DNA from: Spizellomyces punctatus DAOM BR117
Taxonomy: Eukaryota
Length of the DNA: 64,000 nucleotides
Assembly (NCBI GenBank): GCA_000182565.2
Contig: KQ257456.1
Strand: one strand, 5' to 3'
This document shows, in pieces, positions 2,336 to 6,927 of this stretch. The position numbers were made by a program, and so were the translations under genes. The stretch's first letter is position 1. Every line of letters begins with the position of its first letter. Below the pieces are notes generated by a model. The model was given only the letters and a program-made list of their open reading frames with translations, searched no databases and was not told the DNA's origin.

Positions 2336-3601
2336 TTAACGGCGAGGTGATCTCGAGCGACGCCGCGGTGATGGGGAACGGCGACGAGGAGACACAGATC
2401 GGCGTCGCGATGATCTGTCCGACCGACGCTGGGGGCTTCCGGATCGCTCCTGCTCATGTTGTCCTTATAGTCTGCGGGGGTTTGCACCAGAGATATAACT
2501 TGTCTTACCTCCTTCACACTTAGAGTCTGGCCTTCGTAGTCATAGTCTTGGAACATGCGCATAGCCTCCTCCATATCCGATAGATTGGAAAACTCCACGA
2601 TACTAAGTTGGCAATTCAGTACACACCTTTGTAAATACATGAACCATGATCATGCTCACCCTTCGCCTTCACGTGAGACGTCGGTATAAATAACTTCTCC
2701 GGCTTTCCGCATAAGATCTTTCAAATCCTGAATCCCACGGCGTTGTTAGATAAGTCGATCTATCGAATATAGAGTGCCTCGAAAGTCCGTGAACCAATGA
2801 GGCCGTCCCGGTTTCCAAGGCCAGACAGGAGAGGAACTCTTGCGAGAGAAGTCACACAGCAGCACGTGGAAGACCCAAAAGATGGAAGCCAAATACGAAG
2901 ATCCCGTTTTGCCAAGTGTGGTGAAGGTCGCCAAGATAGATCAAGAGACGGCACTCCCACGGCACAACTACATCGGACATTCTTGGCTCAGCCCATAGTT
3001 GCGACATACCCATATACAGTCGCCAGACGACACACCCATCCTGCTTGCTCCCAAATTTTATGCGGGGTTCTTTGCTTACCTGCCAGGACGTGCGGTTGGG
3101 CAAGTTCTGAACGATGATCCTATATAGAGGTACGATCAGATGCCAGCTACTCGAAACAAGTGGAGACAGCTAAACCTACCGGTGGGAACTACGTCCGCCA
3201 CGTCGGGTTGTAGTTGGGACATATTGGTCGCGCCTTCTGCGGTCCGCTTGAGTATGCGCAGGTTCAACAATCAATCTAGAAACAAACACGAGCTGTAGGG
3301 CTGCAGACTGTAAAATTTTGGAAAGAATTATAGGCTCCCTACCTTGCATGGTGGAATTTCTCACCATCGAGAACTTTGACGCAGTCTCGGGCGTCTTGCT
3401 CGTTCTCAAACTCAACGAAAGCATATCCACTGAGGATACGATACTCAGCGACCCTGCCAAACTCGGTTACGAGTTTCTCAACCTCCCTCTGCGTAACGTC
3501 GTTTGGCAGTTTTCCTGTTTACAACCATGCCATTCGTTAGCAAGAAACAAAAGAGTGGCCTCTACAGTCTACTGACCAATGTATACTCTTCTGTACGGCA
3601 T
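2336..3601 (-). CDS. SR splicing factor with two RRMs and an RS tail (SRSF4/5/6, Srp2-like)
   Basis: Spliced product MPYRRVYIGKLPNDVT...GYAFVEFE (RRM1), IIVQNLPNRTSWQ/DLKDLMRKAGEV (pseudo-RRM2 SWQDLKD), and a C-terminal RRSRSPRR stop at 2336. Confidence 0.9.
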
Positions 3602-4013: not shown

Positions 4014-6927
4014 ATGTTTTGGGTAGCCAGGAAATTTACATCAACCATTGTACATACTCTTCCTTCGATTCATACCGCTCTTACAACCGATACTCCGTCA
4101 TCTCAACAGTCACATTCGGTTCAAACTGTAGGAGACTCTCCGCAATCAGAGGAGCCTTCAAGTGAAAATCAAGTTACCGAAGAAAAAGATTCCTCGTATC
4201 AACCCCCTTCTACCACTACCGTAGCAAACCCACCAAATACTGGTACTGGACCCTCTGAGACAGCCACGCGTGCAGTACCTCGGCCAGTTCCAGAGCGAAT
4301 AACACTCCCCGTGCGTCCTCGATCCGCTGTTCAGCCAGCATACCAACGTCTTGCAGTCGTCATGTCGCATCTAAACGGTGTAAACGGTGTAAGCCTATCT
4401 GGCCGAACACCCTCTCCGCAACTGGCCAACGGTCCAGTTTATACACAGCCACAGGACACACAGCTACTCTCCGCTGACGGATTCCTGGAAACTAGCGCGT
4501 ACGCTAACCGCGCTCGCCGTCTTATAAAGATGGTGAATACTATGCGCGATGCTGGTGCACATATGGATCTAGACTTGCCTACCATCGTGGTTTGCGGAAA
4601 CCAAAGTGTTGGCAAAAGTAGCGTCATTGAAGCACTCTGCGGAGTTGTGCTTCCCCGGAACGAGGGAACTTGTACACGATGCGTAACCGAAGTGCGTCTG
4701 TCCGAACTTGACCGAGATGGGAACAGTGCTGGTCTCACTGCCGCGCCTTGGTCTTGTACCGTGAAATTGCGTTATGAATTCGATTCAGCCGGAAGACCAT
4801 TAAAAGCCGTAAAAGAATTAACATTCGGAAAGGAGACTTTCAACAAAGGAGACGTGGATATACTGGTCCGCCGAGCTCAGAAGGCCTTGCTAAATCCTTC
4901 TACTGACCCTGTACGATATCTCGATTACATGTTTGACGACTCATCTGCCGCGACACGTGATAAAGAAGCTGCCAGCAATGAGCTCAAGTTTGTAAAAAAC
5001 GTGGTCTGCTTGGATATCCGTGGCGCTGGTGTCAATTTGACACTGATTGATCTCCCGGGGATTATACGAAGCGTTGACAAGAGGGAGGATTCGCAGTATA
5101 TAGATCTCGTGCAAGATTTGGTACGCTCTTATATCAGCAAGGACAGGGCCATAATTGTTGCCACCATCACATGTAAAGATGAAATCGACAATCAAGTGAG
5201 CTACAGCCGGTAACCTAGCTTCCTATATCTTAAGAAACTCATCAGTATACTCCTACTATAGGCTGTCGTCCATATGGCGAAGGAGGTTGATCCTCACGGA
5301 ATGCGCACTCTCGGTGTTCTAACGAAACCAGATACCATAGAAGCGGGAACACATGACCGATGGCTGCAAATAATGCTTGGGCATCAATATGCTCTAAAGC
5401 TTGGATATTGGATGATCAAGAACCCCACAAAAGCGGATCTTGATAAGGGTATCACATTCGAAGATGCCAGGCAATTGGAGGAAGCCTTCTTTTCCGGACA
5501 GCTGCCATGGTCGACTATCCGTCGCCAACTTGATCGGTTCGGTATTGATTCTCTACGGCGAGAGTTGAGTCGTCAGCTTACCATGTTGACCGAGATGTCA
5601 ATACCGGAAATGCAAAGCCGAACGGAGGAAGCCATACAAGCAACAGCTTTGGAACTGAGTAATCTGCCGCCCTCACTTGGAGAGAACTCTCGAATCGAGC
5701 TTTTGCAAATGATCCGACATTTTTGCACTCTGATCAATTACAATGTGACGGCACATCAAGACTTTAAGCAATTTTACCAACAGATTCGTGTACATTTTGA
5801 TGTCTTCCGCGAAGCAGTTGCTGCTACCCGTCCCACATTTGCTATGGCGCAGAAAGGTGGCCAGCCGACGGCCCCACCCCTGTCTTTATCATCCTCGATC
5901 TCGTCCTCCATATCTTCAGTGGTAGGATGGGGAAGCTCAGGGGACGATGCGCGACGAAAAGACATTCCAAAGCATGCCAAAATACATAGTGCTGATGCAA
6001 TGGAAACTGATTTGAAGAAACCCCTCACTGTAGCCGACGTCCGACGTATAATTGACGCCCAGAAAGGCAGGGAACTGCAAGGATACTCTGCATATGACGC
6101 TTTCACATATGTCGTGACCGCCTTTCAAGAGGAGTGGGCGAAGCATGGACAAACGTGTTTGGCGGCGGTATCCCATGAGCTGCATACCTTGGTTGGAAAA
6201 CTGACAGAGGATGTATTTGGACGTTTTGTTAACCTGCAAGGGCAAGTGAGGTAACAATCATGAAAGCGTAACTTGCAAAAGCAAACAAATTTATTCCGCT
6301 CACCTCGCTTACCTTGATGATAGGTTTGTCATTCAAGCTTTCCAAACTGAACTGTATCGTTCAACGTCAGAAGTCGTTAACAACCTGGTAGCTATGGAGC
6401 GACGATATCCATTCACAATGGGCTCTGAAGAATTTACTCGAACAAAAGCTGCCGCTTTGAACGAGTTCCGCTCGCAATTGGAAGCGTCTCGCGCAGGGAC
6501 AACAGCCGGAGCTGCAGCCGCAAGTTCCCAATCAAAGGCCGAAACCGTTAACAAAGCTCTAGCTGCTCTTGCCGAAGCTGGCTACACAGGTTTAACGGCT
6601 CGAGACCTCAGCCGTCTCCGCGCAGAGTCACCCGACGATGACGAAGTTCTCCATGTGATGTCGGCCTCCCACGCTTATTTCCGGGTTGCATGTCGACGAT
6701 TCAGCGACAATGTCCCCATGAGCGTCGATTTCCATTTCTTGTCCCGCTTTGCAGAGTTGTTGGAAAAGGAGTTGGTGGGACGATTGGGTCTTTTGGAAAA
6801 AGATAACGCTGCTGTACGTTTTATGTTGCAAGAAGATAGATTTGTTGCCGAGCGGCGAAGGGCTCTGGAAGAACAGCGAGTGAGACTGGAAACAGTTTGG
6901 AGGAGCCTGCACGAATTTGGATTTTAA
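4014..6927 (+). CDS. Mx-like dynamin-family GTPase (GTPase, stalk, GED); true start uncertain
   Basis: LPTIVVCGNQSVGKSSVIEAL, LPRNEGTCTRC, LTLIDLPGI, RTLGVLTKPD and a GED-like YFRVACRRFSDNVPM...LQED...ERR, over three large exons. Confidence 0.88.

What the first reader, a model, noticed from the sequence alone, without database searches (positions are those of the whole stretch)
2728..3079. Oversized intron at SWQ^DLKD in the SR-protein gene: candidate ancient unproductive-splicing (NMD) switch
Seen: this intron is 352 nt, against about 50-70 nt for its neighbours, and splits the pseudo-RRM motif exactly between SWQ and DLKD. It contains internal splice-like signals on the minus strand (AAGCAG near 3041, a GTATGT donor near 3010, CTGAG...GATGTAG acceptor near 2968). 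Retention reads into TGA at 2852-2854, before the RS domain. Established: SRSF4/5/6-family genes are autoregulated by alternative splicing coupled to NMD, with an RRM2-intron event described in both animals and filamentous fungi. Inference: the same switch persists in a zoosporic fungus.
Basis: partly seen in the sequence, partly recalled or inferred. Interest (0 to 1): 0.72.

Follow-up and report, generated by a model that had tools for sequence, protein, structure and literature searches.

The report
Chytrid SRSF5-type long regulatory intron
A splicing-factor gene of a swimming-spore fungus has one unusually long, well-conserved intron at the same spot where animals and moulds switch the gene off by faulty splicing, so this known ancient off-switch probably also exists in early-branching fungi, though it is not yet shown to work here.

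Summary
The gene is the Srp2/SRSF5-type SR gene SPPG_04708 of Spizellomyces punctatus. Intron 4 is 352 nt (neighbours 57-67; species median 64), phase 0 at SWQ^DLKD, and retention stops at TGA 2854-2852. Vertebrate SRSF5-type poison exons use the same site, so it matches the event of Lareau and Brenner 2015. New support: the interior differs from S. palustris at only 4 of 82 translated codons, less than three real proteins (117 of 1678). All 5 transcript-like glomeromycotan contigs keep this intron while the next is spliced. Against: the listed internal splice signals are at chance level, the TGA is Cys in S. palustris, and one chytrid-like contig has a 57-nt intron here. The only RNA run is 3'-biased and cannot measure retention. 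NMD and autoregulation are untested. The scan had not noted this intron before. Verdict: a new member of a known system, expected from phylogeny.

The parts
2336..3601 (-). Srp2/SRSF5-type SR gene, 7 coding exons, 202 aa (RRM1, pseudo-RRM2, RS tail)
   Evidence: Model equals named protein P0001; two RRM_1 stretches, E 1.7e-29
3080..3119 (-). Exon 4, ends in the SWQ codons
2728..3079 (-). Intron 4, 352 nt, phase 0, SWQ^DLKD; candidate retained NMD intron; single copy in the genome search
2795..3040 (-). Interior stretch whose translation matches the S. palustris gene-model insert at 78 of 82 codons, no indel
2852..2854 (-). First in-frame stop on retention (TGA); Cys in S. palustris
2745..2749 (-). 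Branch-point consensus CTAAC of the main acceptor
   Evidence: CTAAC enriched after strong donors, 25 vs 9
3004..3046 (-). AAGCAG acceptor-like and GTATGT donor-like motifs; would bound a 31-nt frameshifting exon 3040-3010 behind a 39-nt intron without a branch consensus; use unshown
2968..2991 (-). CTGAG...GATGTAG acceptor-like motif; chance level (CTGAG 12 vs 10 in control)
2868..2917 (-). UUGG/UUUGG-rich stretch; weak, post hoc lead for a cis element
   Evidence: E 0.86
2660..2727 (-). Exon 5, DLKD...GEG; followed by the phase-2 intron at GEG^IVEF that is also seen in SRSF5-type genes

Best explanation
Intron 4 is the chytrid copy of the ancestral SRSF5/srp2 unproductive-splicing intron. 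Shown here: position, phase, length, in-frame stop upstream of two further junctions, constraint on the interior, NMD and EJC genes present. Inferred: in a genome of ~64-nt introns a 352-nt intron with exon-like GC is spliced poorly by intron definition, so part of the mRNA keeps it while the other introns are removed; translation stops inside half a pseudo-RRM before the RS tail and the mRNA is degraded by UPF1. Further inferred and least certain: conserved elements in the interior let the SR protein itself, or another splicing factor, set the retained fraction (negative feedback). My odds: retention coupled to NMD about 0.7; feedback by its own protein about 0.4.
For: Same site as the stop-bearing exon of SRSF5-type vertebrate contigs (L077, L086) and a named SRSF5-like isoform that diverges right after SWQ (P0142). 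PMC4379411: the equivalent intron is retained in N. crassa, A. niger and P. placenta, stabilised without Upf1 in N. crassa, and among the longest 1-3% of introns. Length 9 sd above the species mean. Interior 4 of 82 codon differences versus 31 of 459, 69 of 1000 and 17 of 219 in three real protein pairs; simulated neutral divergence of 7.5% gives P 0.003. Of 106 metagenome loci, 12 keep this intron and 2 join a foreign exon to DLKD while the next intron is spliced; all 5 transcript-like glomeromycotan contigs keep it, and L052 keeps only it (tally by hand). Rhizophagus-like and Paraglomus-like introns share a 44-nt block, 84%, E 6e-7. UPF1, UPF2, UPF3, Mago nashi found.
Against: No direct evidence of retention in this species: the one RNA run has no sense depth over 2796-3131 or exon 4. 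The constraint estimate rests on one sister species seen only through a translation, so silent changes are hidden; if neutral divergence were only 3%, 4 differences are ordinary (P 0.40); the SR protein itself differs at just 2 of 202. The TGA is not conserved. A chytrid-like contig (L041) has this intron at only 57 nt (neighbours 25 and 30 nt). No significant similarity between this intron and those of other genera. Splice signals of intron 4 are consensus-like, not weak. Retained-intron contigs may be slow-splicing nuclear intermediates.
Confidence: 0.68

Rival explanations
1. The unproductive form uses internal sites (an animal-like poison cassette such as 3040-3010, or alternative donors or acceptors) rather than full retention.
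For: GTATGT is the commonest donor before CTAAY..YAG in 260 kb of this genome (9 vs 3). 13 of 13 internal AGs and 9 of 13 GT[AG] sites would give a stop over 100 nt before the last junction. The S. palustris model begins its extra exon at the AAGCAG site. YAG and stop triplets are depleted in the interior (5 vs 11 stops, P 0.006).
Against: Signals at chance level; the upstream intron would be 39 nt with no branch consensus; the +6 base of the donor changes in S. palustris; that genome is listed with one HiSeq library and RNA-guided annotation is stated only for S. endobioticum, so its exon is probably a prediction artefact; PMC4379411 saw no cassette exon in fungi.
Confidence: 0.11
2. The intron is detained: incompletely spliced RNA stays in the nucleus as a pool or is decayed there, and NMD plays little part.
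For: Retained-intron contigs are easily assembled from metatranscriptomes, and none of the 7 glomeromycotan-like loci is fully spliced, which suggests a stable species; L022 and L055 keep an upstream intron too. PMC4379411 itself raises slow splicing as a cause of retention.
Against: The N. crassa form is a Upf1 target; the NMD genes are present here.
Confidence: 0.1
3. The intron is spliced constitutively; length and similarity are a relic, reflect locally low divergence, or come from an unrelated overlapping element.
For: L041 shows the intron can shrink to 57 nt; local silent divergence is unseen; opposite-strand RNA reads reach about 2660-2700.
Against: Two calibrating genes whose S. palustris partners lie on a contig of the same length (489,225) as P0002 differ by 7-8%; no Rfam match, no unusual fold (z +1.1); no opposite-strand depth over the intron; same intron long in Aspergillus, Neurospora and Rhizophagus-like contigs.
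Confidence: 0.08
4. The interior is a protein-coding alternative exon (82 aa, as in the S. palustris model) that is broken in this strain.
For: Open frame of 82 codons in S. palustris, in frame with DLKD; stops depleted.
Against: It would split the RNA-binding SWQDLKD helix; all three frames have long open stretches; the changes are radical (L>W, stop>C, C>Y); no Pfam match and no homolog other than P0002 and one chance repeat protein.
Confidence: 0.03

Closest known systems
SRSF5 intron 5 / fungal srp2 retained intron (N. crassa intron 3), Lareau and Brenner 2015, PMC4379411
   Same: Same gene subfamily, same intron site and next intron site, unusual length, in-frame stop on retention.
   Different: Chytridiomycota and Glomeromycotina were not in that study's tables. 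There the intron was 'not notably conserved' among Aspergillus species; here the interior looks constrained in a Spizellomyces pair and shares blocks between Rhizophagus-like and Paraglomus-like contigs. NMD was tested there, not here.
Animal SRSF5/B52 poison cassette exon
   Same: Lies in the intron directly before DLKD (L077, L086, P0142) and introduces stops.
   Different: No evidence for a used cassette exon in this intron; no significant sequence match to the fish-like exon.
SRSF4/SRSF6 intron-2 poison exons
   Same: Same regulatory outcome in the same subfamily.
   Different: Different, non-homologous intron; per PMC4379411 these paralogs lack the SWQ-site intron.

Membership tests
SRSF4/5/6-Srp2 subfamily | Canonical RRM, pseudo-RRM with SWQDLKD, C-terminal RS tail | tested here: met
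SRSF4/5/6-Srp2 subfamily | Closer to SRSF4/5/6, B52 and Srp2 than to SRSF1/plant SR | tested here: met
   Named hits among the best 120 of 292 are SRp55/B52, SRSF5, SRSF6, srp2, and one SF2; RRM1 lacks the 5-6 residue loop insert of SRSF1, SR34 and SF2. A tree was attempted and lost with the script machine.
SRSF5-like gene structure | Introns at SWQ^DLKD (phase 0) and GEG^xVEF (phase 2) | tested here: met
   versus L077 and L089; the N. crassa exon 4/5 primer of PMC4379411 reads GEGFVE when reverse-complemented by hand
SRSF5/srp2 unproductive intron | Homologous to the intron that bears the SRSF5 poison exon | tested here: met
   the paper's own exon-position figures are images and were not seen
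SRSF5/srp2 unproductive intron | Unusually long for the genome | tested here: met
   352 nt versus quartiles 59/64/70
SRSF5/srp2 unproductive intron | Retention gives a stop over 50 nt upstream of a later junction | tested here: met
   286 nt before the last junction
SRSF5/srp2 unproductive intron | Selectively retained in processed mRNA of this species | tested here: inconclusive
   3'-biased run, no sense depth at exon 4; 13 letters of sense depth at 2748-2795. Seen in glomeromycotan-like contigs.
SRSF5/srp2 unproductive intron | Retained form degraded by NMD | not testable with these tools
   Only the genes for UPF1/2/3 and Mago nashi were found
Autoregulated SR poison events | The protein binds its own pre-mRNA and shifts splicing | not testable with these tools
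   Motif hint only: TTGG 7 vs 2.3 (post hoc); GGA not enriched
Animal-type poison cassette exon | Internal exon with used splice sites on both sides | tested here: inconclusive
   Signals at chance level; no read coverage

The most novel reading that the evidence does not exclude
Early-diverging fungi keep a sequence-constrained sensor inside this intron (an array of UUGG/UUUGG sites for the protein's own pseudo-RRM, possibly with an animal-like poison micro-exon). The animal poison exon would then descend from a regulated element already present in the opisthokont ancestor, which Aspergillus lost at the sequence level.
Probability: 0.15. Interest if true: 0.65.

Novelty: new member of a known kind. 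Interest (0 to 1): 0.38.

Why it matters
PMC4379411 left open whether the animal and fungal events share one origin and how the fungal one is controlled. Finding the same long intron in a chytrid, and its selective retention in glomeromycotan-like transcripts, fills the gap between animals and Dikarya and favours a single origin. A constrained interior suggests there are cis elements to dissect, and S. punctatus can be transformed (PMC7213984, PMC10267658; listings), so the question becomes testable. Because the event is known on both sides of this lineage, its presence here is expected rather than surprising.

Tried and rejected
RNA evidence: no listed holder was on record as RNA. Of 7 runs listed I laid 4. 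X1-X3 are unspliced DNA-like contigs. X5 (6% read, 440 records laid, reads up to 60 nt) shows only the intron-6 junction (7 reads) and cannot measure intron 4; the 13 letters at 2748-2795 are about one read and prove nothing. An abundant isoform polyadenylated inside intron 4 was not seen in that sample. RNA structure: z +1.1. Rfam: 0 matches in 3 loci. Coding potential: no Pfam family, only P0002 and a chance Trp-rich repeat protein. Motifs: TTGG was picked after looking; it ranks 2 of 256 4-mers here, 2 in L041, 3-12 in Rhizophagus-like, but 105-187 in L045, L024, L072. TATKTGG occurs 23 times in the window, so sharing it means little. A profile of the Rhizophagus-like block, chosen post hoc, hits 2917-2868 at E 0.86 and other fungal introns at E 0.16-1.3: not significant. 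The genome-wide SWQ-donor pattern was at control level, 58 vs 49. A multi-RRM paralog at L113 has WQ-LK motifs without this intron. No related genomes are held for this window. The tree and scripted tally were not obtained. PMC11649378 supplements do not mention Spizellomyces.

Full report
Observation. The minus strand holds a seven-exon gene whose spliced product (202 aa) is identical to a database protein named SPPG_04708 of Spizellomyces punctatus. Introns are 62, 67, 60, 352, 57 and 59 nt. Intron 4 (3079-2728) is phase 0 between SWQ and DLKD, with consensus donor, CTAAC branch site and CAG acceptor, and GC 0.51 against 0.38-0.46. A published table gives 43,038 introns for this species, mean 69, sd 31, quartiles 59/64/70 (PMC6142364 supplement; column head not seen). 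Retention stops at TGA 2854-2852, 286 nt before the last junction.

Family. The protein has two RRMs and an RS tail. Named hits among the best 120 of 292 are SRp55/B52, SRSF5, SRSF6 and srp2, with one SF2, and RRM1 lacks the loop insert of SRSF1 and plant SR34. A search of the genome with a Rhizophagus ortholog gave 6 matches: this gene first, then a multi-RRM paralog without the intron and three weaker matches that I did not examine. A tree could not be made.

Position. [quoted passage not shown] I tested the site with data. A fish-like genomic contig has introns before DLKD and after NEG (L077). A transcript contig joins a stop-bearing exon from that intron directly to DLKD (L086). The downstream exons are 79% identical to a named SRSF5 and 63% to a named SRSF6. 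A named SRSF5-like isoform leaves the normal sequence right after SWQ and stops (P0142). So intron 4 is at the SRSF5 poison site.

Conservation of the interior. The S. palustris gene model P0002 carries an 82-aa insert between SWQ and DLKD that is the translation of window 3040-2795. That genome is listed with one HiSeq library, and RNA-guided annotation is stated only for S. endobioticum (PMC6572847, passages and supplement rows), so the exon is probably a prediction artefact, but it shows the intron's content. It differs at 4 of 82 codons with no indel. Of 10 candidate single-exon proteins looked up, 3 were found, each with an S. palustris partner, differing at 31 of 459, 69 of 1000 and 17 of 219; these pairs are biased to at least 90% identity. 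With about 7% replacement differences, neutral divergence is probably 8-20% (inference from usual dN/dS, my own knowledge). Simulation gives P 0.003 for 4 or fewer differences at 7.5%, but P 0.40 at 3%. Constraint is therefore likely, not proven. Retention would still end early in S. palustris if the intron length keeps its remainder (inference). The Powellomyces model has a 13-aa insert at the same site ending in Q, which reads like the end of an intron.

Other early-diverging fungi. A scan for the DLKD-MRKAG coding pattern gave 106 loci. By hand: 78 have WQ directly before the motif, 1 is not a homolog, 2 join a foreign exon, and 25 have an AG; of these 12 have the next intron spliced and 13 have it present. 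Seven loci resemble Rhizophagus or Paraglomus proteins: 2 are genomic and 5 are transcript-like, and all 5 keep the SWQ intron (632-654 nt where complete; median intron 78 nt in R. irregularis). L052 keeps only this intron and stops 34 codons in. L022 and L055 also keep an upstream intron. Fully spliced products exist too (P0137). The Rhizophagus-like and Paraglomus-like introns share a 44-nt block near the 5' end (84%, E 6e-7) and a block near the 3' end. Against a universal long intron, a chytrid-like genomic contig has it at 57 nt, about twice its 25- and 30-nt neighbours, with the acceptor TAG as in-frame stop (L041).

RNA in this species. One raw run was 3'-biased: 440 records laid, 7 on the intron-6 junction, no sense depth at exon 4 or over 2796-3131, 13 letters at 2748-2795. 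It shows expression and nothing on retention. UPF1, UPF2, UPF3 and Mago nashi are encoded; EJC-linked NMD is reported for N. crassa (PMC6173133, passages).

Mechanism. Best reading (0.68): a slowly spliced, over-long intron is kept in part of the mRNA, gives a stop before half of RRM2 and the RS tail, and is cleared by NMD. Control by the protein itself is plausible (about 0.4) but rests on analogy. Pseudo-RRMs bind GG, and Npl3 RRM2 binds GNGGA or UGGA (PMC10630445, passages). TGG and TTGG are enriched here (14 vs 9.5; 7 vs 2.3; top 1% of window tiles; 0 TTGG in the other five introns), in Rhizophagus-like introns and in L041, but not in L045, L024 or L072, and GGA is not enriched. The motif was chosen after looking and profile matches are not significant. 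Stops and YAG are depleted in the interior, which fits avoidance of cryptic acceptors and branch sites (inference). Rivals: internal poison sites 0.11, nuclear detention 0.10, no regulation 0.08, coding exon 0.03.

Novelty. Five literature searches (listings only, plus passages of PMC3173450, with no mention of chytrids) found no report of this event in chytrids or Glomeromycotina; the library lacks most subscription journals. The scan's own notes hold nothing on this intron; two unchecked notes describe a comparable long intron in the BBP/SF1 gene. This is a new member of a known system, expected between animals and Dikarya; the constrained interior and the selective retention in glomeromycotan-like transcripts are the additions. 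Interest 0.38.

Noticed in passing
window 2364-2700 (+ strand): Opposite-strand reads, depth 10-26, cover exons 6-7 and introns 5-6 with no joint and fade near 2660. The convergent upstream gene is a Rad51-family gene that by eye ends near 2131, so its 3' UTR may overlap about 500 nt of the SR gene and end just short of intron 4.
   Followed up: partly
window 2450-2508 (- strand): Intron 6 has a second CAG at 2474-2472 that would drop the RS tail by frameshift; sense depth of 1.9 lies in 2460-2507 but only the 59-nt splice was listed.
   Followed up: partly
L052:383-460 and L045:1290-1335: A 44-nt block in the retained intron is 84% alike between Rhizophagus-like and Paraglomus-like contigs, with a second block near the 3' end; candidate regulatory elements in arbuscular mycorrhizal fungi.
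   Followed up: partly
L022:270-526; P0017 versus P0062: Rhizophagus-like genes have a second variable region between RRM1 and RRM2 (an RD-rich stretch present or absent, an intron kept in L022 and L055).
   Followed up: no
L041:1250-1620: Chytrid-like contig with very short introns (25 and 30 nt) and a 57-nt SWQ intron.
   Followed up: partly
G000:C3:1220504-1221283 and C3:1258016-1258795: UPF3 matches occur twice with identical scores 37.5 kb apart: a recent duplication or an assembly repeat.
   Followed up: no
window 4014-6254 (+ strand): Dynamin-family gene divergent from the SR gene, about 400 nt from its start codon.
   Followed up: no
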